DNA from: Escherichia phage vB_EcoM-Ro157lw
Sequence record: MH051335.1
DNA length: 64,000 nt
Strand: one strand, 5' to 3'
Under the pieces are notes generated by a model, which ran no database searches, had not been told where the DNA came from, and saw only the letters and a program-made list of their open reading frames with translations. The translations under genes were made by a program, and so were the position numbers. How positions within the stretch are numbered: the first letter of the stretch is position 1; each line of letters starts with the position of its first letter. Shown here piece after piece: positions 1 to 55,305 of this stretch.

Positions 1-135
1 ATTTTGAATTAATTTAAATTAATTTTTTCTACATCCTCATACTTATGTTAATTTATATATTTAACGTATTATCCGTAAGATATAAGTAAAAACAAAGACT
101 TGCGGCAATACGGATGATACGTCATGATACGCTTC
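1..135. repeat. AT-rich tract plus iteron-like decamer CGGATGATAC (111-120) with partial copies; inverted paralog of the element at 15866-15938
   Basis: Direct reading: 111-135 and flanks match the reverse complement of 15861-15885 (one mismatch over about 25 bp); shared AATTAATTTAAATTA-type AT tract. Confidence 0.5.
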
Positions 136-359
136 AACCAGCCAGCAGCGGCTAAGTCATTGATTTGCATAACACGCGGCGAAAGGGATGGATTTCTTTT
201 ATACGTATCAAACAGTACACCAAGCACCACGGTCCGCTATTCATTAAGCATTGTGATTTATGTACGTTTACAGCCAATTTGAACATCAATCTGCACTTGA
301 ATATAATGTTCAATCATTGTATAATTCACACTATTAATTTGCACTATGGGATTTGCACT

Positions 360-833
360 ATGAGTCAAGATTATGTAGCAATGCCTGAAGACTTTGAAGA
401 CCCGCGATTTGCAGAGCATAATCAGGCATTATTCGATGAGTTCATTGACCTTGTTATTCAGGGCCATGACATGCGCGCAGCTTTTGCACTAGTATTTGGC
501 ATGGAGGTTGCGACCGATAACTACACTGGCCAGCGAATCCTCTGCACGCAACGCAATCCGTACTACAAGATGCGCTACAAAAAGCGTATGGAAGAGATGC
601 CATTGAAGGAATTGTGGAGCGTAAAGAGTTCCATCCACAATTTAGTGAAGCTTGTGCGTGATCCAGAAGTCGCGGCATCAGCCAAGCTTAATGCCATTCG
701 TGAACTGAATATCATCTACGGCATTACGATGATTGATGAAAACGGCAATAGTAAAATGGGCCGTTCCATGGATGATTTCTACAAGGATTTTGGAGAGGCG
801 GCCAAAGAGGGTGAGCAATTCTCCCGCCACTAG
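360..833 (+). CDS. hypothetical protein (start uncertain; frame is open back to a TTG at 165)
   Basis: ORF track 165..833; first ATG-initiated stretch MSQDY at 360; region upstream is occupied by motif copies; no clear SD. Confidence 0.5.
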   Translation: MSQDYVAMPEDFEDPRFAEHNQALFDEFIDLVIQGHDMRAAFALVFGMEVATDNYTGQRILCTQRNPYYKMRYKKRMEEMPLKELWSVKSSIHNLVKLVRDPEVAASAKLNAIRELNIIYGITMIDENGNSKMGRSMDDFYKDFGEAAKEGEQFSRH

Positions 834-852
834 CCAATTTGCACTATAAAAC

Positions 853-886
853 GGCCCTAGAACACATTTTCTCCACTTCTAGGGCC
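853..886 (+). other. stem-loop (10-bp perfect stem GGCCCTAGAA/TTCTAGGGCC, 14-nt loop) downstream of CDS 360..833
   Basis: Inverted repeat read directly; no U-tract, so not a classic terminator. Confidence 0.4.
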
Positions 887-1261
887 ATCGGTAATACGAC
901 GGGGAAGGCTGCAACCATAAACGCGTTAGAAAGTGTATTATTATAAGTCATCTTTTAGTCACTTTACGTAACAATTTACGACCTTCAGCCGTCCAGTCGA
1001 ACGACTCCACCAGCAGATTTGCACTATAACCTAAGACGATGCGCCCTTTCTCGTTATCAACCCGCCAACAAGTCTCGAATAGCATTCGATTTGCACTATT
1101 AACTATCGCCGCAGCGCGCGTTGGGTAAGCGCAATTTGCACTATGGTCGTAAAGGGATAAGGTGCGACCACTTCCGATGGACAACGTAGCGATGAGAATA
1201 AGCGTATTCATAAGCCACCAATTTGCACTATGAAAAGCGACCCCGAAGGGCCGCCATTCGA

Positions 1262-1888
1262 TTAGATGATCTGGAAGGTGTAGGACTTGTTGCCGAACTC
1301 AAAGTTTAAGCGCCCAGCTTCCTTGAGCTTCATACGGAAGCGAATGTGCTTGCTATCCGGTAAGCCCAGCGCGGCGAACGCTACGCGGACTGATTTGAAC
1401 TCGCCTACACCCTCGACCATAACGGCGTTACGCGTGAGACGCTTTTGCGCCACTTCCTTGTTATCCCAACTTTTTGCAATACCTTCGCTATTCGAACGGC
1501 GATGGGAAGGACTGGCAATTTTATCCGCGCCAACCGGAGTATCATTCAGGCCGCTCTTGACGAATGCTTCATACTCTTCGTCGGTCATCGCGTCGAGTTC
1601 TTCCTGAGTCGGCTCGGCCTTTTTAACGACCGCACGCGCCTTATGCGTTTTTACATCGCTGGACACTTCCTCGCACGGCTTCGCGTCTGGAATGGGCGAT
1701 TCGTTGGACGGCTCATCGAGCGCGTTTAAGGACTCGATTAACGCGATGACGCGAGTCTCAGCGGTGCGACGGTCCGCAAACTTCTTAATCGGTTTTGAGC
1801 CGGAGTTAGCGTTATAGAACGCAACGAGGTCGGCGGTCTTAGTTGCGATAACGTCGCCGCTAGTAGAGAAACGATTCAAGCTAACCAT
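1262..1888 (-). CDS. hypothetical protein
   Basis: ORF track; ATG with AGGAG SD on minus strand; CpG-rich, CTG-poor codon usage; followed by a short UUCG-loop hairpin and T-run. Confidence 0.6.
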   Translation of the reverse strand: MVSLNRFSTSGDVIATKTADLVAFYNANSGSKPIKKFADRRTAETRVIALIESLNALDEPSNESPIPDAKPCEEVSSDVKTHKARAVVKKAEPTQEELDAMTDEEYEAFVKSGLNDTPVGADKIASPSHRRSNSEGIAKSWDNKEVAQKRLTRNAVMVEGVGEFKSVRVAFAALGLPDSKHIRFRMKLKEAGRLNFEFGNKSYTFQII

Positions 1889-2029
1889 AATAAACTCCTA
1901 GTTTGGGAGCGGCGTTAACGACCTATTCGCTAACTCATCCCGTCCCGATATGAGTACATTATAATATAGTGTAGAAAAAAGTAAAGCACTTTTTCGATAA
2001 AAATGCGATAAATTATTTTATCTTTTTTC

Positions 2030-2057
2030 TTTACTTCTTCGTACACTCGCGTATACT
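2030..2057 (+). promoter_or_regulatory. sigma70-like promoter TTTACT-N16-TATACT inside a conserved ~45-bp element
   Basis: Element CTTTACTT.TTCGTACACT...GTTTATATCGAGA repeated upstream of 2113 and 2523. Confidence 0.45.
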
Positions 2058-2112
2058 TGTTTATATCGAGACGGGCGATGGCCTTCCTTCTACTAGCATC
2101 GGGAGCTTTATT

Positions 2113-2415
2113 ATGACTACTTTAATCTCTTCCATCCTTACTTACGACGAAGACCGTTTAACCGTTCGCTCTCTTATCGCCGCCGTTAACGCGGAACTAG
2201 AATCCAGCGCCATTAAGGTCCGCGCGGTCGCCTTCGTCGGCCTCTCCTTCGACGAAATTAAATACGCCGAACGTAGCGCCATCCGCTTCGCGAAGACCGA
2301 CGACGAAGCCGTCACCCTTATCGAGACGGTTACGCCGCGCGACGAAGCGTTAATTATCGTCGAGTATATCGACGTAGAAGGCGATAATGCTTATAAATAT
2401 TTTATCGCAAAATAA
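2113..2415 (+). CDS. hypothetical small protein (acidic)
   Basis: ORF track; ATG with GGGAG SD; promoter-like element upstream. Confidence 0.6.
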   Translation: MTTLISSILTYDEDRLTVRSLIAAVNAELESSAIKVRAVAFVGLSFDEIKYAERSAIRFAKTDDEAVTLIETVTPRDEALIIVEYIDVEGDNAYKYFIAK

Positions 2416-2426
2416 CGAAAAAGTGC

Positions 2427-2455
2427 TTTACTTATTCGTACACTAAGACTATAAT
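2427..2455 (+). promoter_or_regulatory. sigma70-like promoter TTTACT-N17-TATAAT (second copy of the conserved element)
   Basis: Consensus -10 hexamer; leader contains an 8-bp stem hairpin at 2478-2498. Confidence 0.5.
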
Positions 2456-2522
2456 GTTTTATATCGAGAGGGGATGAGGTAGCGAATAGGTCGCTACCCT
2501 CCCGACTAACTAGGAGAATATT

Positions 2523-2813
2523 ATGATTACTTTATCCGCTATCCGTTCCGCTCGCGTCGAAACTTCCGAAAACTCTAACGTATTTGGCGAAACCTTAGAG
2601 AGCGTTTATCTCTCTAACGTAGACGCGATTATCGAGTCTATTTATGAGCCGATCAACTTTCTCGACCTTTACAAGTATCGCGACGAGGACATCGTATCCT
2701 ACCGCGTAACGATTAACGGCTTCGTCTATACGATTACCGAAATCGGCGGCGAATATATCGCTGTACCGCAACTCGGCGGCGAAGTAACTTACTTTAAAAT
2801 CGTAAGCCTTTAA
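2523..2813 (+). CDS. hypothetical small protein (acidic)
   Basis: ORF track; ATG with AGGAG SD. Confidence 0.65.
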   Translation: MITLSAIRSARVETSENSNVFGETLESVYLSNVDAIIESIYEPINFLDLYKYRDEDIVSYRVTINGFVYTITEIGGEYIAVPQLGGEVTYFKIVSL

Positions 2814-2824
2814 GGAGAAGAAAG

Positions 2825-3034
2825 ATGACTAATATGAATAACTCTCTTAACGCGCGCGCCCATCGCACCGCCGTAATCGATATGTTTCGCGAGCTTAAGG
2901 AATTATGCGATAATATGAACGCGATGTTATCCATCGGCGGCTGGGGATACGAAGAAGAAGTTAAATACGCGGTTATGCGTCGCCGTCGCGATAACGTCCT
3001 TGGGCAAATTAAACGCGCCGGATTATTCCTTTAA
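2825..3034 (+). CDS. hypothetical small protein
   Basis: ORF track; ATG with AGGAG SD. Confidence 0.6.
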   Translation: MTNMNNSLNARAHRTAVIDMFRELKELCDNMNAMLSIGGWGYEEEVKYAVMRRRRDNVLGQIKRAGLFL

Positions 3035-3060
3035 TTATAATCACCCACCGTTACTAATAG

Positions 3061-3082
3061 GCCGCGCTTAGTCGCGGCTTTT
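3061..3082 (+). terminator. intrinsic terminator (GCCGCG/CGCGGC stem, 6-nt loop, TTTT)
   Basis: Hairpin plus T-run 27 nt after the stop at 3034. Confidence 0.55.
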
Positions 3083-3204
3083 CTTCGTCCCTATCTCGAT
3101 GCGCTTCTCCTCGAAAACTCCTTTATCCTTCCCTTCTTCGTCGCATAATCTTCGTCGAGATGCGCCTTAGTTCGCATAACAGGTATTACGTTAAATGGAG
3201 AACA

Positions 3205-3278
3205 TCGCGTAAGTCGTTGTTTTATATAGACACCTATATCGGAACGTTAAGGCGGGTCGCGTAAGTCGTTGTTTTATA
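3205..3278 (+). repeat. 22-bp perfect direct repeat TCGCGTAAGTCGTTGTTTTATA x2 (3205-3226, 3257-3278)
   Basis: Direct reading, period 52 bp, non-coding region. Confidence 0.85.
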
Positions 3279-3402
3279 AAGGCGCAAAACTTTCCCTTCG
3301 TTCCGAACTAAAACGAGAAATATGCCGACCCTTCGCCCGAAAATAGTACGCATGCGAAATTACCGACATCTAGAATAATCCCCACCGATATTATTCTGCG
3401 CG

Positions 3403-3462
3403 CAATCATTCGCTTTCGAACTATTATGCTTCATATTATTATGCGTCGAATCATTCGCTTTC
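3403..3462 (+). repeat. 15-bp direct repeat (C/G)AATCATTCGCTTTC x2 (3403-3417, 3448-3462); adjacent 8-bp-stem hairpin at 3372-3397
   Basis: Direct reading, period 45 bp. Confidence 0.8.
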
Positions 3463-3555
3463 TAATTGTAACGCTGGAAACTGTAACGGCGATTGATTAT
3501 TGCGTTCGTGTGGTTTTTAGGGCATGGGTCTTTTGGTGCGTTTTGGTACTTGATG

Positions 3556-3668
3556 AAATTTGCAGTACACTAATCAAAATACGACACATTTGGCCCACTA
3601 ACTTTTCAAAGAAAAAGTCCTAGACAGTACCGTACTATTTTGTGCCCACAGTAAATTTGCAGTACACT
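3556..3668 (+). repeat. 16-bp perfect direct repeat AAATTTGCAGTACACT x2 (3556-3571, 3653-3668); shares the ATTTGCA core with the 337-1231 array
   Basis: Direct reading, period 97 bp. Confidence 0.85.
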
Positions 3669-3737
3669 CCTGCGCGGCAGGCAAAATAAAGGGCCGCCAC
3701 AGCGACCCACGATTCACGGTTAAATCAGCAACACCCA

Positions 3738-4133
3738 CTATTCACTCTTATGGGCATCACCAAAGCCATCCGCAATCTGACTGATCAATGATTCAATGGA
3801 CACAGTTTTACCAATTGATCGAGCGGTAATAGCAAGCATATTATCAATCAAACCATGATTAGACGCATATGGTCCAGGTTTTGAATCATCTTCAGGACAA
3901 CCAAAAAGCTGGTCGCGAAGACTTTCAAGAGAACGCTCAATATTTTCCAGCTTCTCTTCTAAATCGGATTGGCGACGTAAAACCCACGTTAAGTCGCGGT
4001 TGCCGACTTCCAATCCATCAGAATCGCAAGATGGAGCGTCAATTTTGATACTTCCACTAAAGGCCATTCCGCTGCCTTTAGTATATGTATTGTGAATAGA
4101 ATCATTTTTATTTGACATATCATTACCTTTCAT
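3738..4133 (-). CDS. hypothetical protein (alternative start at 4118 has the better SD)
   Basis: ORF track. Confidence 0.55.
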   Translation of the reverse strand: MKGNDMSNKNDSIHNTYTKGSGMAFSGSIKIDAPSCDSDGLEVGNRDLTWVLRRQSDLEEKLENIERSLESLRDQLFGCPEDDSKPGPYASNHGLIDNMLAITARSIGKTVSIESLISQIADGFGDAHKSE

Positions 4134-4213: not shown

Positions 4214-4408
4214 TCAATCGATACCAACTGAGCCGATGTGCTGAAAGAACTCTGAATAAACTTCCTTCCAGTATTTACGGGCTGCTTTCTGAGCCTGTCC
4301 TTTGCGCTTGAAGCTTTTACCTTGAAATATGAAGCGGTCTTTTGGTGCGTAATACTCCACCACACCTTCCAGCCATTGTAAGAACGCTACTGATTCATTT
4401 TTATTCAT
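4214..4408 (-). CDS. hypothetical small basic protein
   Basis: ORF track; ATG with GAGGT SD. Confidence 0.55.
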   Translation of the reverse strand: MNKNESVAFLQWLEGVVEYYAPKDRFIFQGKSFKRKGQAQKAARKYWKEVYSEFFQHIGSVGID

Positions 4409-9246: not shown

Positions 9247-10707
9247 ATGAATAAAATATTAACACATAATTGGAAAGTCATGTACCAGTTGAATCCTGCT
9301 TTAAGAGAAGTCTGGAAGACGAAAGCGCGATACAAAGTCATATACGGCGGTCGTGCATCTTCCAAATCGCACGATGCCGCTGGTTTTGCTATTTATTTGG
9401 CGGCAAACTTCAAATTAAAATTCCTTTGCGTTCGACAATTCCAGAACAAGATTTCTGAATCAGTATATACGCTATTAAAAGATAAAATAGAGATTTCTGA
9501 TTTTAAAGACGAGTTCAACTTATTAAAGAACTCTATTGAACACAAAAGAACAAAATCTGAATTTTTATTTTACGGTATCGCACGCAACGTTGACGAAATC
9601 AAATCAACAGAAGGTGTTGATGTTCTTTGGCTTGAAGAAGCGCATGCACTGACTGAAGAGCAATGGGACATCATTGAGCCGACAATTCGTAAGGAAGGGT
9701 CCGAAATATGGATCATATTTAACCCTGATGAAGAGGCTGATTTTGTCTACCAGAACTTTGTCATGCGACCGCCGAAGAATGCCATCGTTAAGAAGATTAA
9801 CTGGCAGGACAACCCATTCTTGTCGCAAACAATGCTGGATGTTATAGCTGGCATGTATGAGCGCGACCCGAAAAAGGCAGAACACGTTTATGGCGGAGTA
9901 CCGAAGACTGGCGGCGACAAGTCGGTCATCAACCGTGCATTTGTCAAGGCCGCGCTAAACCTCCACAAACACCCTACGCTGGGGTGGAGCTTGTCAGGGT
10001 CTAACCGTATAGGCTTCGACGTGGCGGACGACGGCGACGACTTAAACGCCACAGCGTTTGTCACAGGCAACGTATTACGTGGCATCAAGACATGGGAAGG
10101 TCTGGAAGATGAATTGCTTAAGTCCGCAAGCGGAGTTTGGAAAGACGCATTGACATTCGGCGCATCAATCACCTATGACGCCATCGGTGTTGGTGCATTT
10201 GCTGGTTCAAAATTTGATGAGCTTAATGAGTATGCAATCCATGAAAATCCAACATTCCCAAGAATCGAATTTAATGCGTTCAACGCGCAAGGTGCTGTTG
10301 ATGATCCTGATGACGTTTTCCTTGAGTTACCACACGTTGAAATACTCAATAAAGACCATTTCGCAAACATAAAAGCGCAAAAATGGACTGAGATTGCCGA
10401 ACGATTCAGAAAGACATATGAGTATGCGACAGGGCAAGCCGTATATCCGACCGATGAGTTGATTTCCATCGACACAGACGGCATCCCAGAACTTGGTATT
10501 CCCGCTTGGTCTGCCGAAGAAATTGAGACGTTTCTTTTTGAGATGTCAGCACCGCGCAAAGACACGTCTGTTCTTGGTAAGTTCAAAGTTGAATCGAAAA
10601 AAGATATGGCAAAGCGTGGAGTCAAATCGCCTAACAAAGCGGACGCAGCAATCATGGCATTGATGAAACCAATTGTTGCAGCATCCGGCTTCTTCTCTAA
10701 CCTTTAA
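9247..10707 (+). CDS. terL: terminase large subunit
   Basis: Deviant Walker A GGRASSKS, Walker B VDVLWLEEA; position ahead of portal. Confidence 0.8.
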   Translation: MNKILTHNWKVMYQLNPALREVWKTKARYKVIYGGRASSKSHDAAGFAIYLAANFKLKFLCVRQFQNKISESVYTLLKDKIEISDFKDEFNLLKNSIEHKRTKSEFLFYGIARNVDEIKSTEGVDVLWLEEAHALTEEQWDIIEPTIRKEGSEIWIIFNPDEEADFVYQNFVMRPPKNAIVKKINWQDNPFLSQTMLDVIAGMYERDPKKAEHVYGGVPKTGGDKSVINRAFVKAALNLHKHPTLGWSLSGSNRIGFDVADDGDDLNATAFVTGNVLRGIKTWEGLEDELLKSASGVWKDALTFGASITYDAIGVGAFAGSKFDELNEYAIHENPTFPRIEFNAFNAQGAVDDPDDVFLELPHVEILNKDHFANIKAQKWTEIAERFRKTYEYATGQAVYPTDELISIDTDGIPELGIPAWSAEEIETFLFEMSAPRKDTSVLGKFKVESKKDMAKRGVKSPNKADAAIMALMKPIVAASGFFSNL

Positions 10708-11487: not shown

Positions 11488-11525
11488 ATAGATTGATTCC
11501 CTTTCACTGTCAGGTGGCGTTAACA

Positions 11526-13901
11526 ATGAAAATTCTTGGCATAAAACTCTGGGAGAAGACGCAACCAGAAGCCGAACCAGCGGAGATGCCGCCAGGCGAC
11601 CCATTGGCACCGTTTGAACGCCTTGAAAGGCGCGGCAGCGGTCAACGCTGGGAAAAGACTGAAAGCAATCGACCGACCTTTAAAACGGTTGATGACTTCC
11701 CTTTATATGAGCCTGATATTAATGGCGATGGTGTTGCAATCATAAAAGGTCGTTCAGTCGATTCCGCAACAGTATCCAAAAAGGTTATGGATAATGCCTT
11801 AAAGAACATCAGTTCAGAAGGGCAAGTCAACCCATACACAGTACCTATTCAACTTCAAAACTGGTATTTGTCACAGTCATTCATCGGCTATCAAGCTTGC
11901 GCAATTATAGCGCAGCACTGGCTGGTGAACAAGGCTTGTTCCATGGTAGGCCGCGATGCGGTCCGTAAAGGCTGGGAAGTTAAATCCAGTTCTGAGTCAG
12001 AATTGTCAGTACAAGCCAGCGAACGCCTAAAGCAAATTGATAAAGAATTTAATATCAAAGAGCACTTAGTTGAAGCCGAACGATTCAAAAATATTTTTGG
12101 TATCCGCGTCATCATATTTGATGTGCGTAGCGATGACCCAGAATATTACAGCAAGCCTTTTAACATTGATGGTGTGACAAAGGGGTCTTATAAGGGAATC
12201 ATTCAGGTTGACCCTTATTGGATGATGCCATTTTTGACGTCTGAAAACACCGCCGACCCTGCATCACAGCACTTCTATGATCCAGAATACTGGGTGATCA
12301 GTGGACAACGTTATCATCGAAGTCACCTCATCATCTTGCGCAATGATGAGCCAGCTGATATTCTCAAGCCAACTTATATTTACGGCGGCATTCCTCTGAC
12401 TCAGCAGATTTATGAACGCATCTATGCCGCTGAACGTACCGCTAACGAAGCGCCATTGCTGGCGATGTCCAAGCGTACAACCACGCTGCGGACCGACGTT
12501 GACAAGGCTATTGCCAATGAGCGGTCTTTTGCAGAACGTCTGATGATGTGGATCAAGTACCGCGACAACTATGCAGTCAAAGTGCTTGGCCAAAAAGAAG
12601 AGATGGACCAGTTTGACATCAACTTGTCAGACTTCGACAGCATCATCATGAACCAGTACCAGCTTGTGGCCGCAATCGCAAAAGTTCCGTCGACCAAACT
12701 GCTTGGGACTTCGCCAAAAGGCTTTAACGCCACTGGTGAATTCGAGATGGTCAGCTATCACGAAGAGTTGGAAACGTGCCAGCAGCATGACCTGACAAAA
12801 ATTCTCGACCGCCATTACAAAATCCTTCTCAAATCAGAAGGGGTGGATGTCGATGTTAAGGTTGCATGGGAACCAGTTGGCTCACTTACTGCTACTCAAC
12901 TTGCAGAAATCAATGATAAGCGAGCCAACACTGGCAAAACTCTTATTGATGCTGGCGTCATTTCTCCTGATGAAGAGCGCGACCGCATCAAAGACGACAA
13001 AAACAGCGGCTACAACCGTCTGCCGGAAGACGCAGCAGAAGAAACCCCAGGGATGTCTCCAGAGAATATGGCATTGCTTGGCAAGTCTGCTGGTGAAGTC
13101 CTGCAAGGTAAGGCCGATATTGAACAGGCGAAAGCTGATGTCGTTAAGATGGGCGGCCAGTTCTATAGCGAAACAGGTATTATGCCAGAGGGTGCCGCGC
13201 GTGGTGAGTTGGCGGAAAACCCTGACAAGGCGCCTGTCGAAATCAACATGGACGATACCGATGATGAATCAAGCCATCAGGTTGATGTCCTAACGCAGTT
13301 GAAAGAAGGGCTGGAGGGTATTGCGGATTACTACCTGAAAGAAGGTCAGGATGTGGATTTTGACCCTCAAAAAGATTCACGGTCGGTGCAACCGTCTACC
13401 CTTCCAAGCGTTAAAGGACACGTCGTCAACTTACGCCACAACGTGGGTAAAATGGACGCAGCATCATTACCTAAGATGAAGTTGCACGGAATGATTCTTG
13501 GCATTGAGAATCCGCGAAACAGCATTCGTAGAGGAAACAGCCTTGACGGTGAATGGGCCGTGAAGATGCCGCACCACTACGGATTCATCAAGGGCACCAA
13601 GGGCGCAGACGGTGATGAAGTCGACTGCTTTGTGGGTCCAAATCTGAAGTCGCCGAAAGTCTTTATCGTGAACCAAAACGATAACTACTCTGGCGAGTTT
13701 GATGAACACAAGTGTATGCTTGGATTCGATTCAGCAGAAGAAGCGAAAGAAGCTTATCAAGCATCATTTGGTAACGGTTGGAACGGATTCGACTCAATCC
13801 ACGAATTAGATGTGAACTCATTCAAGGAGTGGTTGAAGGGTGATTGCTCTCAAGCATACGGAGCACTCAATAATCCTACTAATTCACCGAAGCAAGGTTG
13901 A
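11526..13901 (+). CDS. portal protein with ~250-aa C-terminal extension
   Basis: Position between terminase and MuF-like gene; portal-like N-terminal two-thirds; ATG at 11526 with AGGTGG SD (track extends to TTG 11493). Confidence 0.65.
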   Translation: MKILGIKLWEKTQPEAEPAEMPPGDPLAPFERLERRGSGQRWEKTESNRPTFKTVDDFPLYEPDINGDGVAIIKGRSVDSATVSKKVMDNALKNISSEGQVNPYTVPIQLQNWYLSQSFIGYQACAIIAQHWLVNKACSMVGRDAVRKGWEVKSSSESELSVQASERLKQIDKEFNIKEHLVEAERFKNIFGIRVIIFDVRSDDPEYYSKPFNIDGVTKGSYKGIIQVDPYWMMPFLTSENTADPASQHFYDPEYWVISGQRYHRSHLIILRNDEPADILKPTYIYGGIPLTQQIYERIYAAERTANEAPLLAMSKRTTTLRTDVDKAIANERSFAERLMMWIKYRDNYAVKVLGQKEEMDQFDINLSDFDSIIMNQYQLVAAIAKVPSTKLLGTSPKGFNATGEFEMVSYHEELETCQQHDLTKILDRHYKILLKSEGVDVDVKVAWEPVGSLTATQLAEINDKRANTGKTLIDAGVISPDEERDRIKDDKNSGYNRLPEDAAEETPGMSPENMALLGKSAGEVLQGKADIEQAKADVVKMGGQFYSETGIMPEGAARGELAENPDKAPVEINMDDTDDESSHQVDVLTQLKEGLEGIADYYLKEGQDVDFDPQKDSRSVQPSTLPSVKGHVVNLRHNVGKMDAASLPKMKLHGMILGIENPRNSIRRGNSLDGEWAVKMPHHYGFIKGTKGADGDEVDCFVGPNLKSPKVFIVNQNDNYSGEFDEHKCMLGFDSAEEAKEAYQASFGNGWNGFDSIHELDVNSFKEWLKGDCSQAYGALNNPTNSPKQG
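13476..13898 (+). other. inorganic-pyrophosphatase-like segment within the portal C-terminal extension
   Basis: KMPHHYGFIKGTKGADGDEVDCFV matches the family-I pyrophosphatase signature D-[SGDN]-D-[PE]-[LIVMF]-D-[LIVMGAC] and the preceding YPxNYGxI..T pattern (recalled, not searched). Confidence 0.4.
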
Positions 13902-15865: not shown

Positions 15866-16136
15866 GTATAATGACGTATCATCCGTATCAAGTAAGTAGT
15901 TGTTTTCAAAAGAATCTTACGGATGATACGGATGATACGCGTTGCCGCGATAATTTATAGGAATTCAAATAAATTAATTTAAAATTATATATCTAATTTA
16001 ATTTTATTTTTTTATAAACTCTTATATATGAAAAGTATCCGTATCATCCGTATCATCCGTAGCACACCAGTGATAGCGCGGCTTATACACCGATACGGAT
16101 AAAAATACGCCTCATTTTATCCGTATCATCCGTATC
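15866..16136. repeat. iteron-like region: GTATCATCCG at 15876, 16041, 16050, 16123; inverted tandem CGGATGATAC at 15920 and 15929; ~90-bp AT-rich tract at 15951-16040
   Basis: Direct reading; coordinates anchored to ORF-track boundaries. Confidence 0.85.
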
Positions 16137-44667: not shown

Positions 44668-45310
44668 CTGGATACACCTGTTTGATCACGTCGACTATAA
44701 ACATGTCAATGCCTTCAAGCTTTCGACCTTTCATCAGGAAGAATGCACCGTTCCCGACGTTCTCTGCAATGTATTTCCCGTATTTCTGGAACTTCTCTGG
44801 ACGAATCCTGAAGCGCATTGGCGAGTCGGTCGAGTCGTCCTTGCACATAAGGTCGATGAACTGAGTTTCAAGCTTGTTTCCATACTGATCAAACTCTGCG
44901 TAGCGGCCATCGGCCTGAAGACCCTTTTTAAGCTTGCCGTGCTTTGTATAAATGCCGCGCTCAAGACGTTTACGGATGCGTGTTGCTTCGTTCTCGTCAG
45001 CCAGCACTTTCTTGGTCAACTTGCCGATTACTATTGCACGCTCGTCATCGCCGACTTCCTTCATCTGACGTATTGAAGCACCGGAAGTAACGCCAATCAG
45101 ATAGGGGTCATTATACGCCCAGCCAAACTTGGTGTGCATCTCTGTAAGGTCGCCGTATTTGACTTCAGCATTGGCCAATGCATCCTTTTGTTTTTGCGTT
45201 AAGGTTCCGGCTTCACGTGCTTCGATGTACTTCATCGCTTTCACCATTCCGTACCCTTTAGCGTTCATGATGCCGCCAATTAGCTTTCCGTTAGCGATTG
45301 GCCAATGCAT
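44654..45310 (-). pseudogene. C-terminal fragment of the DnaE-like polymerase, separated from the main ORF by a frameshifting 127-bp tandem duplication
   Basis: N-terminus repeats the last 42 aa of ORF 45291..47678 (IANGKLIGGIMNAKGYGMVKAMKYIEAREAGTLTQKQKDALAN); no usable SD at its ATG. Confidence 0.65.
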
Positions 45311-45424
45311 CCTTTTGTTTTTGCGTTAAGGTTCCGGCTTCACGTGCTTCGATGTACTTCATCGCTTTCACCATTCCGTACCCTTTAGCGTTCATGATGC
45401 CGCCAATTAGCTTTCCGTTAGCGA
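45171..45424. repeat. perfect tandem direct duplication, 2 x 127 bp (45171-45297 and 45298-45424)
   Basis: Identical copies read directly; consistent with the ORF-track break. Confidence 0.9.
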
Positions 45425-52989: not shown

Positions 52990-53121
52990 TTGTCCTTTGT
53001 GGGTGATATGAGAAGTATAATAGCTAAATTATTTTACAGCAACAAGTCATTTTATTTAGTACAGATGAAAAAAGACCCACAACAAGTGTGGGTCAATTAC
53101 CGCTGCATAACCGTCCTAAGG

Positions 53122-53967
53122 TTATTCCGCTTGATCACCGTCTTCGGCATCTTCGTTGGATTCAACATCGACAAACTCGATGTGGCCCATCTCTTCCAGC
53201 TTGCTCAGGTAGGAGCGAACGGAAGCGCCAAACAGTTGATCTTTAACTTTTTCGCCCAGCTCATCGATAGACTGCGCCACGCCAACTTCGCCTTCTTTGA
53301 TCGCCGCCAGAACGCGTCCACGGGTGGAATGCTCTTGCGGCTGGCTCAGGCCATTGCCAGTGTAGATGAAGTGGGTTGCTTTTGCGCGACGCTGACCGTT
53401 TGCCTTTTTAGCAGCCTTACGTTCTGCGATGGCTTTGCGACGTTCTTCAGCTTCTTTCTTACGCTGTTCTTTCTGCTTTTCTGCAGCTTCTTTAGCCGCA
53501 ATCTTAGCAGCTTCACGCTCTGCCTTGCGTTTCGCTTTAGCTTCTTCTTTGGCCTTCTCTTTTTCGGCCTTCGCTGCAGCACGGGCTTGATCACGCTCTG
53601 CTTTCTTAGCAGCAGCTTGTTCAGCTTTCAGGCGCTTGGCTTCTTCTTTGGCCTTTGCCTTTTCGATTTCTTTTGCTGCTTTAGCGGCTTCACGCTCTGC
53701 TTTCTTAGCAGCTGCTTTTTCTGCACGCTCTTTGGCTTTCTTCGCTGCTTCTTCAGCACGTTTCTGTGCTTTCTCATCAGCGGCCTGCTTGCGTTTCAGT
53801 GCAGCTTCTTCACGCTTGGCTTGTTTTTCCTGCTCACGCTTCTGGCGTTTTTCTTCGGCTTCTTTCTTTTTAGCCAGGCGTTTTTCTTCAGCCACGCGAC
53901 GACGTTCTGCTGCAGCTGCTTGTTTTTCTTCTTTAGATAATACTTTGATTGCTTCGGCCATATTCAC
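53122..53967 (-). CDS. Lys/Glu/Ala-rich charged-helix protein with C-terminal globular domain
   Basis: ~190 aa of KAE-rich low-complexity sequence; AAGGA SD; same strand as all neighbours. Confidence 0.6.
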   Translation of the reverse strand: MNMAEAIKVLSKEEKQAAAAERRRVAEEKRLAKKKEAEEKRQKREQEKQAKREEAALKRKQAADEKAQKRAEEAAKKAKERAEKAAAKKAEREAAKAAKEIEKAKAKEEAKRLKAEQAAAKKAERDQARAAAKAEKEKAKEEAKAKRKAEREAAKIAAKEAAEKQKEQRKKEAEERRKAIAERKAAKKANGQRRAKATHFIYTGNGLSQPQEHSTRGRVLAAIKEGEVGVAQSIDELGEKVKDQLFGASVRSYLSKLEEMGHIEFVDVESNEDAEDGDQAE

Positions 53968-54120
53968 AGTCCTTAAATAAATTAGTTTATTTTATATTCC
54001 CCGTTTGGGATAACTTAATTATGCCTTCAGTCGCCGCCAGTAGCAACTAAAAACTCTGGCGGCAATGCCACTTTAATTAAACTGATTTTCAGTTTTATTT
54101 TTCGTAAATTTACGTCAACA

Positions 54121-55305
54121 TTAACGCGCTTTCAAATCACGGTACACAGTCAGATTCTTCTTAGCGCGGGTAATAGCTGTATACATCATCTTGGCATACG
54201 GAACGCCGCGCAAGATTTCTTCCAGCACGCACACATTGTCCCACTCGCTGCCTTGAGATTTGTGCACCGTTATGACATAGCCATAGTCCATTCCTCCAAC
54301 AGCGCGTTGGGCCTCTTTGCGCACTTCCTGATCAGTAGAGAAGGAAAGAGGATTTATCTTAACCTTTATATCTTTGCCATCGGTAAGCGAGCGCAAATTT
54401 ACATACATTATTTCATTGGACTCATCTTCATCCCTTTCAAAGTCCGGTACTGGCTCATAACTAATAACAATCCCTTGCTCGCCATTACAGAATCCTGGAC
54501 CGTGTTGGTTGAATGTACAAATAACTTTCTCGCCGATTCCTGGCATTGGCGTTATACGTCCGCTCACTTGTCGCAATAATGAATTCCATTTATCTTTAGT
54601 GCTATTATATGAGCAAATAATTTGATCATCTTCGCCCATGAATTTCTTCAGTGCGGTAACGCGCGGCGATTCAGCCAACACCTTTACGTCATCGTATTCA
54701 CGCGGAGGAAGTCGGTTGCCCTGTCGCACGAAGAAGGAAGCGCGGATTATGTTGGACTCTTTTCCCTGCCGCATGATTTCGGTTAACAGTACGTCAACGG
54801 CATCTTCAGTAAAGTAGGCGGCGGCTTTTACCGGAGGGACTTGCCCAATGTCGCCTAATGCCAGCACAGGGATGCGGTGATCAAGAAGGCGCTCTGTGTC
54901 CCACTCGCCAACCATTGAAGCTTCATCAAGGACTACAAGATGCGGCTTTTCGTCCAGCTTTGACTTTCTCGAAAATATTGGCTCATTGTCGTCATTTACG
55001 CCGCGAACGTTATAGATGAACTGGTGAAGGGTCTTCGCGCCACGACACCCTTTCTGCTTCAATCGGCTGGCGGCCTTTCCGGTCGGCGCAATATAAATGG
55101 CACCGTACTCACCGACACAACGGCGCACAATCTCACGCGCAATAGAGGTTTTACCTGTTCCTGCATAGCCAGCGATGAAAAACACGCGCTTCGTCGTTTT
55201 ACCGTCCTGCAATCGCTTGTACCATGCAACGGCCTTTTCGATGGCATCAATCTGTTGCGCGTTAAACTGAATCGCTGGCTCATTATTAAATTCTGGAATG
55301 TTCAT
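54121..55305 (-). CDS. Dda/RecD-like SF1 DNA helicase
   Basis: Walker A GYAGTGKT, Walker B VVLDEASMV, VHKSQGSEWDNV. Confidence 0.75.
   Translation of the reverse strand: MNIPEFNNEPAIQFNAQQIDAIEKAVAWYKRLQDGKTTKRVFFIAGYAGTGKTSIAREIVRRCVGEYGAIYIAPTGKAASRLKQKGCRGAKTLHQFIYNVRGVNDDNEPIFSRKSKLDEKPHLVVLDEASMVGEWDTERLLDHRIPVLALGDIGQVPPVKAAAYFTEDAVDVLLTEIMRQGKESNIIRASFFVRQGNRLPPREYDDVKVLAESPRVTALKKFMGEDDQIICSYNSTKDKWNSLLRQVSGRITPMPGIGEKVICTFNQHGPGFCNGEQGIVISYEPVPDFERDEDESNEIMYVNLRSLTDGKDIKVKINPLSFSTDQEVRKEAQRAVGGMDYGYVITVHKSQGSEWDNVCVLEEILRGVPYAKMMYTAITRAKKNLTVYRDLKAR

What the first reader, a model, noticed from the sequence alone, without database searches (positions are those of the whole stretch)
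3035..3737. 700-bp non-coding region densely packed with three different direct-repeat families
Between convergent gene blocks lies a region with a terminator (3061-3082), a 22-bp perfect direct repeat x2 (3205, 3257), a 15-bp direct repeat x2 (3403, 3448), an 8-bp-stem hairpin (3372-3397) and a 16-bp perfect repeat x2 (3556, 3653). Only a weak, SD-less ORF (3426..3623) is present. Such density suggests a regulatory or replication element, or structured non-coding RNA genes.
Basis: seen in the sequence. Interest (0 to 1): 0.5.

Follow-up and report, generated by a model that had tools for sequence, protein, structure and literature searches.

The report
Repeat-rich spacer at terminal-repeat boundary
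The repeat-dense 600-bp gap is the conserved untranslated DNA that straddles the inner edge of this E. coli phage's 3.5-kb direct terminal repeat, where the right end of the packaged genome is cut, so it is most likely a DNA-level genome-end element and not a set of small RNA genes.

Summary
All three direct-repeat families, the terminator and the non-coding status are real, and the repeat density is far above the genome background.

The window is a Wifcevirus (FEC19/ECML-117/WFH/Mansfield group) and begins at the left physical genome end. In three independently deposited relatives the 3.5-3.9 kb direct terminal repeat (DTR) ends at the homologue of window 3533|3534. The finding therefore straddles the DTR/unique-DNA junction, between two convergent intrinsic terminators.

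The ~600-bp spacer is present in all 19 genomes compared. It is 2-3 times more conserved than the flanking genes. It contains an invariant 23-bp block across the boundary and the most G+T-skewed stretch of the 64 kb.

Nothing supports RNA genes: no Rfam or tRNA hit, fold z-scores near 0, no good promoter, and the hairpin is broken in most relatives. No ORF shows coding-type substitutions. There are no DnaA boxes.

Best reading: a cis-acting duplex-DNA element for genome-end formation (terminase nicking and DTR duplication), with the repeats as protein-binding sites. The location is shown; the role of the repeats is inferred. It resembles the T5 terminal-repeat "Repeat Region 3" in layout. It is a new member of a known kind, of modest interest.

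The parts
3059..3086 (+). Intrinsic terminator ending the rightward early-type operon of the terminal repeat (stem 3059-3080, then a T run)
   Evidence: Found by the terminator scan. Identical in all 19 genomes, -12.7 kcal/mol. Annotated as a terminator in Mansfield, WFH and WFC.
3205..3229 (.). Repeat family D2, copy 1 (TCGCGTAAGTCGTTGTTTTATA; lies inside the DTR)
   Evidence: No other copy in the window. Present in all relatives, most with a G-to-C change at 3216, so the pair is perfect in only about a third of the genomes.
3257..3281 (.). Repeat family D2, copy 2, 52 bp downstream of copy 1
3372..3397 (.). 8-bp-stem hairpin. Its 3' arm is the start of D1 copy 1. It is not a conserved structure.
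   Evidence: 8/8 pairs only in the window and FEC19. 5-7 of 8 pairs elsewhere, with fold energy of about 0 to -1 kcal/mol.
3388..3430 (.). Repeat family D1, copy 1 (imperfect 45-bp tandem duplication; conserved core AATCATTCGCTTTC)
   Evidence: Phage Bas100 lacks exactly one 45-bp unit, so one copy is enough for a viable phage.
3433..3475 (.). Repeat family D1, copy 2
3481..3560 (+). G+T-rich (plus strand) tract containing the DTR boundary. It is the strongest strand asymmetry in the 64 kb.
   Evidence: G+T reaches 0.78 in 60-nt windows against a genome mean of 0.50 (sd 0.06). These are the only windows at or above 0.75.
3523..3545 (.). Invariant block CATGGGTCTTT|TGGTGCGTTTTG with the inner end of the direct terminal repeat at 3533|3534. 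This is the inferred nick or cut site that makes the right genome end.
   Evidence: The DTR ends of Mansfield (PhageTerm, 3673), WFH (3701) and SP13 (3899) all map to window 3532-3533. The block is identical in all 19 genomes apart from one extra T in SP13. The WFC record places the end 81 bp further, at about 3614.
3556..3571 (.). Repeat family D3, copy 1 (AAATTTGCAGTACACT), 23 bp outside the DTR in unique DNA
   Evidence: Its core ATTTGCAGTA is a one-mismatch variant of ATTTGCACTA, which occurs 7 times at 337-1231 around terS, always on the plus strand. The central base varies among relatives.
3653..3668 (.). Repeat family D3, copy 2, 97 bp downstream of copy 1
3681..3708 (-). Intrinsic terminator ending the leftward (tail-fibre) operon
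   Evidence: The stem is kept in all relatives while the loop varies. Annotated in WFH and WFC.

Best explanation
The region is the untranslated junction at the inner end of the phage's roughly 3.5-kb direct terminal repeat (DTR).

**Layout**
- Two operons converge on it and stop at intrinsic terminators: the early-type genes of the repeat from the left, and the tail-fibre operon from the right.
- That leaves about 600 bp that is probably transcriptionally quiet.
- Inside it, an invariant G+T-rich block carries the point (3533|3534) where the repeat ends.

**Inferred mechanism**
- In replicative concatemers there is one repeat copy between successive genomes.
- The terminase (TerS 360-833, TerL 9247-10707) nicks opposite strands at the two repeat boundaries.
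- Extension from the 3' ends then duplicates the repeat, so each packaged genome ends at 3533.
- The three two-copy direct-repeat families flanking the boundary (two inside the repeat, one just outside) most likely act as duplex-DNA binding sites. The bound proteins would position or regulate this end-forming reaction.

**Shown:** the location at the boundary, the conservation, the non-coding and non-RNA character, and the terminators.

**Inferred:** that the boundary is cut by staggered nicking, and that the repeats take part.
For: **Identity and position**
- The window is a Wifcevirus, 97% identical to FEC19.
- It starts at the same base as the WFH record, which begins at the left genome end.

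**Boundary**
- Records that carry both repeat copies (WFH, SP13) and the PhageTerm-annotated Mansfield record all end the repeat at the homologue of window 3532-3533.
- The literature confirms a roughly 3.7-kb terminal repeat (PMC6563267; PMC6753283).
- The 23-bp block across the boundary is invariant in 19 genomes.
- That block lies in the most G+T-skewed tract of the window.

**Conservation**
- The spacer has pi of 0.043, against 0.09-0.12 in adjacent genes, and essentially no indels.

**Exclusions**
- No coding signature.
- No RNA family, tRNA or stable fold.

**Terminase and motif link**
- TerS matches PDB 7uxe at E = 9e-33. TerL matches PF04466.
- The D3 core resembles a 7-copy, strand-specific motif array surrounding terS. 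The pattern ATTTGCASTA gives 9 hits against 0.47 expected, all within 1-3.7 kb and all on the plus strand.

**General mechanism**
Against: - No experiment or read data for this phage were available. The boundary is transferred by homology.
- The WFC record puts the repeat end 81 bp further right, so the end may be imprecise or one record may be wrong.
- No motif of 11 nt or more is shared between the left and right repeat boundaries.
- Each repeat family has only two copies, and the copies drift independently among relatives.
- One D1 copy is dispensable, as shown by Bas100.
- The D3 resemblance to the terS-side motif is only 9 of 10 bases. The distinguishing base varies in relatives. At two mismatches to the 11-mer, such matches are common by chance.
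- The homologous TerS of Pseudomonas phage E217 showed no appreciable DNA binding in vitro (PMC9611059).
- Other intergenic regions inside the repeat are similarly conserved (pi about 0.04), so conservation alone does not single out a packaging role.
Confidence: 0.5

Rival explanations
1. DNA-entry pause or stop signal, as proposed for phage T5. The left end with the terminal repeat enters first, its early genes are expressed, and the repeat-rich untranslated region at the inner end of the repeat halts or paces further DNA transfer by binding a host or phage protein.
For: The layout is the same as T5 Repeat Region 3. That region is untranslated, repeat-dense, mostly inside the long terminal repeat but overruns into unique DNA, and is more conserved than the repeat's ORFs (10.1101/866236; compare). 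The repeat carries strong sigma-70-like promoters and small early-type genes.
Against: There are no DnaA boxes, even at one mismatch, in 3000-3800. There are no large inverted repeats or palindromes. Two-step transfer has never been reported for Wifcevirus. The DTR ORFs gave no Pfam hit that would link them to T5 pre-early genes.
Confidence: 0.1
2. Transcriptional insulator or operator region. The repeats bind a phage or host regulator, and the C-rich unstructured minus-strand RNA over 3480-3560 acts as a Rho-dependent back-up terminator. Together these keep late leftward transcription out of the early genes and early transcription out of the late genes.
For: Two convergent terminators flank the region. 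The minus strand across 3425-3575 is C/A-rich and nearly unstructured, with MFE of -4 to -8 kcal/mol per 100 nt. Other intergenic control regions in the repeat are equally conserved.
Against: No promoter in the region needs an operator. The only annotated regulator next door (69 aa, 2825-3034) is absent from 13 of 19 genomes, while the repeats are in all of them. A second G+T-rich tract near the other repeat boundary lies on the transcribed strand, which is the wrong strand for a Rho site.
Confidence: 0.13
3. Replication origin with iteron-like repeats and an A+T-rich unwinding region.
For: There are direct repeats of 16-25 bp. The D2 spacing of 52 bp is close to five helical turns. The D1 segment is moderately A+T-rich.
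Against: Each repeat has only two copies. There are no DnaA boxes or IHF sites. No initiator or replication gene is adjacent; the replication module lies at about 38-55 kb. There is no GC-skew inflection. A better iteron-like array exists at 15.9-16.1 kb.
Confidence: 0.08
4. Small non-coding RNA gene(s) transcribed from within the spacer.
For: Weak sigma-70-like sites (9/12) occur on the minus strand inside each D1 copy. The region is conserved.
Against: No Rfam hit with E below 0.26, and those hits overlap the terminator. Fold z-scores are about 0 on both strands. No terminator is correctly placed for an internal transcript. The only hairpin is disrupted without compensation in 17 of 19 genomes.
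Confidence: 0.06
5. The repeats are functionless relics of local duplication (replication slippage or recombination near the genome end). The region would be conserved only for its terminators and the cut site.
For: All families have two copies. Copies accumulate independent substitutions. A natural one-unit D1 deletion is viable. The 22-bp pair is perfect in only about a third of the genomes.
Against: Diversity is low across the whole 600 bp, not only at the boundary (0.029-0.033 per 100 bp over D2 and D3). Both copies of every family are retained in 18 of 19 genomes.
Confidence: 0.13

Closest known systems
Phage T5 left-terminal-repeat 'Repeat Region 3' (contains the proposed injection stop signal)
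   Same: Both are large untranslated regions at the inner end of a long direct terminal repeat. Both are packed with several families of repeats and overrun the repeat end into unique DNA (270 bp in T5, about 150-170 bp here). Both are better conserved among relatives than the ORFs of the repeat (10.1101/866236).
   Different: The T5 region is 1.2 kb and has many-copy repeats, palindromes, 131-bp inverted repeats and paired DnaA boxes. Here the region is about 600 bp with three two-copy direct repeats, no DnaA boxes and no palindromes. There is no sequence similarity. Two-step injection is unknown for Wifcevirus.
Phage T7/T3 concatemer junction (terminal repeat flanked by short-repeat arrays and pac signals)
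   Same: Fixed genome ends are produced from concatemers by site-specific nicking and duplication of the repeat (PMC5557969). From my own knowledge (Dunn & Studier 1983), non-coding repeats lie next to the repeat boundaries.
   Different: The T7 repeat is 160 bp and non-coding, and its flanking arrays are about 12 copies of a 7-bp unit. Here the repeat is 3.5 kb, carries genes including terS, and the repeats are long two-copy units.
Small-terminase recognition arrays (lambda cosB R sites; SPP1 pacL/pacR boxes; P1 pac hexamers)
   Same: Short repeated DNA motifs lie next to a terminase cut site and next to the terS gene. Here ATTTGCACTAT occurs 7 times around terS, and a related core occurs twice just beyond the repeat boundary.
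   Different: No binding data exist. The related E217 TerS bound DNA poorly in vitro. The link between D3 and the terS-side motif is statistically weak.

Membership tests
Boundary region of a direct terminal repeat in a DTR-packaging phage (T7/T5/SPO1 class) | The virion genome has exact direct terminal repeats with fixed ends | tested here: met
   The WFH and SP13 records carry both copies. Mansfield is annotated from PhageTerm. Confirmed in papers PMC6563267 and PMC6753283.
Boundary region of a direct terminal repeat in a DTR-packaging phage (T7/T5/SPO1 class) | The locus coincides with one end of the repeat | tested here: met
   Three records map the inner end to window 3532-3533. The WFC record maps it to about 3614, still inside the finding.
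Boundary region of a direct terminal repeat in a DTR-packaging phage (T7/T5/SPO1 class) | Read-start peaks and two-fold coverage in this phage's own sequencing data | not testable with these tools
   No reads are available for the window's source.
Boundary region of a direct terminal repeat in a DTR-packaging phage (T7/T5/SPO1 class) | Terminase small and large subunits are encoded | tested here: met
   TerS at 360-833 matches PDB 7uxe at E = 9e-33. TerL at 9247-10707 matches PF04466 at E = 3e-37.
Boundary region of a direct terminal repeat in a DTR-packaging phage (T7/T5/SPO1 class) | The flanking repeats are required in cis for end formation or packaging | not testable with these tools
   This needs mutagenesis. 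The natural Bas100 deletion shows that one D1 copy suffices.
T5-type injection stop region (LTR Repeat Region 3) | Untranslated, repeat-dense, conserved region at the inner end of a long terminal repeat | tested here: met
T5-type injection stop region (LTR Repeat Region 3) | Paired DnaA boxes (TTWTNCACA) | tested here: not met
   No match in 3000-3800, even with one mismatch.
T5-type injection stop region (LTR Repeat Region 3) | Large inverted repeats or palindromes | tested here: not met
   Only 10-16-nt inverted matches with distant arms. No stable folds.
T5-type injection stop region (LTR Repeat Region 3) | Two-step DNA transfer dependent on pre-early proteins | not testable with these tools
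   This is a physiological assay.
Iteron-type replication origin | Three or more iterons, an adjacent A+T-rich unwinding element, host-factor sites, and an initiator gene nearby | tested here: not met
   Each family has two copies. No DnaA boxes or IHF sites. The neighbours are small early ORFs and a tail-fibre operon.
Structured non-coding RNA gene | Match to a known RNA family, or a fold more stable than shuffled sequence | tested here: not met
   Best Rfam E-value is 0.26, on the terminator. Fold z-scores are -1.8 to +1.5. No tRNA.
Structured non-coding RNA gene | Base pairs maintained by compensatory change in relatives | tested here: not met
   The hairpin 3372-3397 loses 1-3 pairs in 17 of 19 genomes with no compensation. 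Variation elsewhere is too low to test.
Structured non-coding RNA gene | Own promoter and terminator | tested here: not met
   Only 9/12 promoter-like sites. Both terminators face inward from the flanking operons.

The most novel reading that the evidence does not exclude
The conserved spacer could be a new kind of genome-end control element. One possibility is a T5-like DNA-entry pause site that works without DnaA boxes. Another is a strand-specific nick signal built on the extreme G+T-rich invariant block, with D1-D3 as loading sites for a Wifcevirus-specific end-processing factor. Either could explain how this lineage switched from the headful, circularly permuted packaging of its Pbunavirus relatives to fixed 3.5-kb terminal repeats.
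Probability: 0.1. Interest if true: 0.6.

Novelty: new member of a known kind. Interest (0 to 1): 0.3.

Why it matters
Wifceviruses are candidate biocontrol and therapy phages for E. coli O157. They are being rebuilt synthetically (PMC11074155), and such designs must preserve the end structures.

Knowing that this spacer holds the repeat boundary and an invariant cut-site block tells engineers which DNA not to disturb. It also gives a compact target (3480-3680) for studying how long terminal repeats are made.

The close Pbunavirus relatives package by headful (PMC12345254). The comparison could show which cis elements convert one packaging mode into the other. Beyond that the feature is what one expects at the edge of a long terminal repeat.

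Tried and rejected
**RNA gene readings**
- Rfam at a permissive threshold gave only sub-threshold hits on the terminator.
- The tRNA scan found none.
- Sliding RNA folds and eight DNA folds showed no stability beyond shuffles.

**Coding potential**
- All 16 ORFs of 20 aa or more were rejected, either because they are broken in relatives or because non-synonymous changes far exceed synonymous ones.

**Host-factor sites**
- Scans for DnaA boxes, IHF sites and GATC in the region found none.

**A motif shared between the two repeat boundaries**
- Only one 10-mer was shared, at unrelated distances from the two boundaries. That is what chance would give.

**Other candidate motifs**
- A second exact copy of the boundary 14-mer GGTCTTTTGGTGCG at 4336 looked interesting. 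It is not conserved in relatives and lies in a gene, so it is a chance match.
- The inverted 13-mer ATTATGCGTCGAA is not enriched.

**Search for distant relatives to test deeper conservation**
- The distant blastn search against phages, two IMG/VR protein-seeded scans, two IMG/VR DNA-pattern scans and one metagenome scan returned only Wifcevirus at about 90% identity or more.
- The D2-pattern scan of IMG/VR returned over 100 single-copy chance hits and was uninformative.

**Other checks**
- There is no similarity to E. coli genomes.
- GC skew gives no origin signal.

Full report
**1. The observation**

- A 22-bp perfect repeat lies at 3205 and 3257. It extends to 25 nt at 96%.
- The 15-bp repeat at 3403/3448 is the core of a 43-nt, 79%-identical tandem duplication with a 45-bp period (3388-3430 / 3433-3475).
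- A 16-bp perfect repeat lies at 3556 and 3653.
- None of the three has further copies in the 64 kb.

The plus-strand terminator is real (stem 3059-3080). A second terminator on the minus strand (3708-3691) closes the leftward operon.

The density is unusual. 557 of 633 700-bp windows hold no exact direct repeat of 12 bp or more. Only four islands hold three or more families, and this is one of them.

**2. What genome this is, and the missing context**

The segment is 97% identical to Escherichia phage FEC19 and 91-96% identical to 27 other records. All are Wifcevirus myoviruses of E. coli or Shigella.

The window's first bases are those of the WFH record, which starts at the left physical end.

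Three records fix the inner end of the direct terminal repeat:
- WFH and SP13 carry the repeat at both ends.
- Mansfield annotates it from PhageTerm as 1-3673.
- Mapped through an alignment, Mansfield 3673, WFH 3701 and SP13 3899 all fall at window 3532-3533, in ...GGGCATGGGTCTTT|TGGTGCG....

The WFC record ends its repeat 81 bp further, at about window 3614. This is an unresolved discrepancy.

Two papers report the roughly 3.7-kb repeat (PMC6563267; PMC6753283).

So the finding straddles the junction between the terminal repeat and unique DNA. D2 and D1 lie inside the repeat. D3 lies 23 and 120 bp outside it.

**3. Conservation**

I aligned the region from 18 relatives with the window.
- The spacer is present in all 19 genomes.
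- The only large indel within the spacer is a clean loss of one 45-bp D1 unit in Bas100.
- Mean pairwise diversity is 0.043 for 3083-3690 and 0.030 within 60 bp of the boundary.
- The adjacent genes have 0.120, 0.108, 0.095, 0.089 and 0.234.
- The 23-bp block CATGGGTCTTTTGGTGCGTTTTG (3523-3545) is invariant apart from one extra T in SP13.

One caveat applies. Other intergenic control regions inside the repeat are about as conserved (pi about 0.04), so conservation shows constraint but not its nature.

Searches for more distant relatives found only Wifcevirus at about 90% identity or more. Deeper comparative tests are not possible at present.

**4. What it is not**

*Not coding.* All 16 ORFs of 20 aa or more in 3040-3745 are broken in some relatives or show many more non-synonymous than synonymous differences. 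ORF 3426-3623 is intact in 11 of 18 relatives, with 8 synonymous against 83 non-synonymous differences.

*Not a recognisable RNA gene.*
- Rfam gives only E = 0.26 or worse, on the terminator.
- No tRNA is found.
- RNA fold z-scores over the repeats lie between about -1.8 and +1.5 on both strands.
- DNA fold z-scores lie between -0.6 and +1.05.
- The 8-bp hairpin is perfect only here and in FEC19. It loses 1-3 pairs without compensation elsewhere.
- The best internal promoter-like sites score 9/12.

*Not a typical origin.*
- Each family has two copies.
- There are no DnaA boxes, even at one mismatch, and no IHF sites.
- There is no skew inflection.
- No replication gene lies nearby.

*Not host-derived*.

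**5. Additional anatomy**

The plus strand across 3481-3560 is the most G+T-rich stretch of the whole window (0.78 against a mean of 0.50, sd 0.06). The boundary sits in it.

In WFH a second, 250-bp G+T-rich tract lies 230-480 bp upstream of the left repeat boundary. Both boundaries are therefore accompanied by the same strand asymmetry.

The two boundaries share no motif of 11 nt or more.

The left boundary is instead flanked by copies of ACGGATGATACG.

The dominant motif inside the repeat is ATTTGCACTAT:
- It has seven exact copies at 337-1231.
- All are on the plus strand.
- They surround and overlap the start of terS (360-833).
- They are conserved in relatives.

The D3 core ATTTGCAGTA differs from this motif at one base. 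That gives 9 hits for ATTTGCASTA against 0.47 expected, all in 1-3.7 kb.

The link is only suggestive. At two mismatches to the 11-mer such hits are common, and the central base of D3 varies among relatives.

TerS is confirmed by a match to the E217 small terminase structure 7uxe (E = 9e-33). TerL is confirmed by PF04466.

**6. Mechanism**

Applied here, in a concatemer one repeat copy separates two genomes. A nick at base 1 on one strand and at 3533|3534 on the other, followed by strand-displacement synthesis, gives each genome a full repeat. The invariant block would be the right-hand nick site.

The spacer is insulated from transcription by two convergent terminators. I infer that D1-D3 are duplex-DNA protein-binding sites that help position or regulate this reaction. 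D3 may be related to the terS-side array.

The location, conservation and exclusions are shown. The nicking chemistry and any role of the repeats are inferred.

My confidence in the whole statement is about 0.5. My confidence that the region contains the repeat boundary and two terminators is about 0.9.

**7. Rivals**
- A T5-like entry-pause signal (0.10). The layout matches T5 Repeat Region 3 closely. The defining DnaA boxes and large inverted repeats are absent.
- A transcriptional insulator or operator with a Rho-dependent back-up site (0.13).
- A replication origin (0.08).
- Small RNA genes (0.06).
- Functionless duplications in a region conserved for other reasons (0.13).

**8. Comparison and novelty**

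The closest analogue in architecture is T5's untranslated Repeat Region 3. It works like the boundary regions of T7- and T5-class phages. It is not a member of the T5 iss family, because it fails the DnaA-box and inverted-repeat tests.

The terminal repeat and its coordinates are already published for relatives. The repeat families, the invariant block and the G+T skew appear not to have been described.

I rate it a new member of a known kind, of modest interest (0.3). The most interesting angle is that the nearest relatives (Pbunavirus) are reported as circularly permuted headful packagers (PMC12345254). The cis elements here may therefore mark the switch to fixed ends.

Noticed in passing
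window 337-1231 (sites at 337, 351, 837, 1017, 1089, 1134, 1221): Seven exact copies of ATTTGCACTAT, all on the plus strand and found nowhere else in the 64 kb. Two sit just before or over the terS start codon (360). Three lie inside a minus-strand ORF. They are conserved at the same places in relatives, some of which have an eighth copy near 1533. This looks like a protein-binding array, possibly for terminase or an early regulator.
   Followed up: partly
window 65-121 and 15875-16133; WFH locus L003 3515-3537: The 12-bp motif ACGGATGATACG, often as overlapping 9-bp-period tandems, flanks the left genome end on both sides. It also forms inverted arrays (22-nt perfect inverted repeat) in the 15.7-16.25 kb intergenic region. 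There are 11 hits at up to 2 mismatches against 4.1 expected. It is an operator- or iteron-like family.
   Followed up: partly
window 45170-45423: A perfect 127-bp tandem duplication (45170-45296 = 45297-45423) at the junction of two minus-strand ORFs. It is either a recent duplication or an assembly artefact.
   Followed up: no
window 1882-2018 (minus) and 2395-2540 (plus): A roughly 140-bp inverted repeat (about 78% identity) carries the same sigma-70-like promoter (TTTACT, 16/17-bp spacer, TATAAT) and 5' leader. It drives divergent early-type genes inside the terminal repeat.
   Followed up: partly
WFH locus L003 3100-3340 (right unique end, outside the window): A 250-bp tract with 65-78% G+T on the plus strand lies 230-480 bp upstream of the left terminal-repeat boundary. 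It mirrors the G+T-rich block at the right boundary (window 3481-3560).
   Followed up: partly
window 3700-3716 and homologues: The heptamer GACCCAC/CGACCCA next to the minus-strand terminator varies in copy number: 1 copy here, 2 in SP13, F13 and Bas99, and about 6 in Mansfield.
   Followed up: no
window 2825-3034: A 69-aa gene (PHROG 'transcriptional regulator', E = 2e-37) immediately left of the region is present in only 6 of the 19 genomes. It is a clean insertion or deletion next to the conserved spacer.
   Followed up: partly
window 11493-13901: The portal protein (PF06381) carries a C-terminal domain matching Pfam 'InPase' (inorganic pyrophosphatase, PF18823, E = 3e-46).
   Followed up: no
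WFC record MK373777 position 3784 (about window 3614): The WFC GenBank record ends its terminal repeat 81 bp further right than WFH, SP13 and Mansfield, although it has the same invariant block. Either the right end is imprecise in WFC or the record's boundary is approximate.
   Followed up: partly
window 53100-54200: A dense set of imperfect 33/99-bp-period direct repeats lies inside a minus-strand ORF (53122-53967). This is a repetitive, probably Ala/Lys/Glu-rich, protein and not a DNA element.
   Followed up: no
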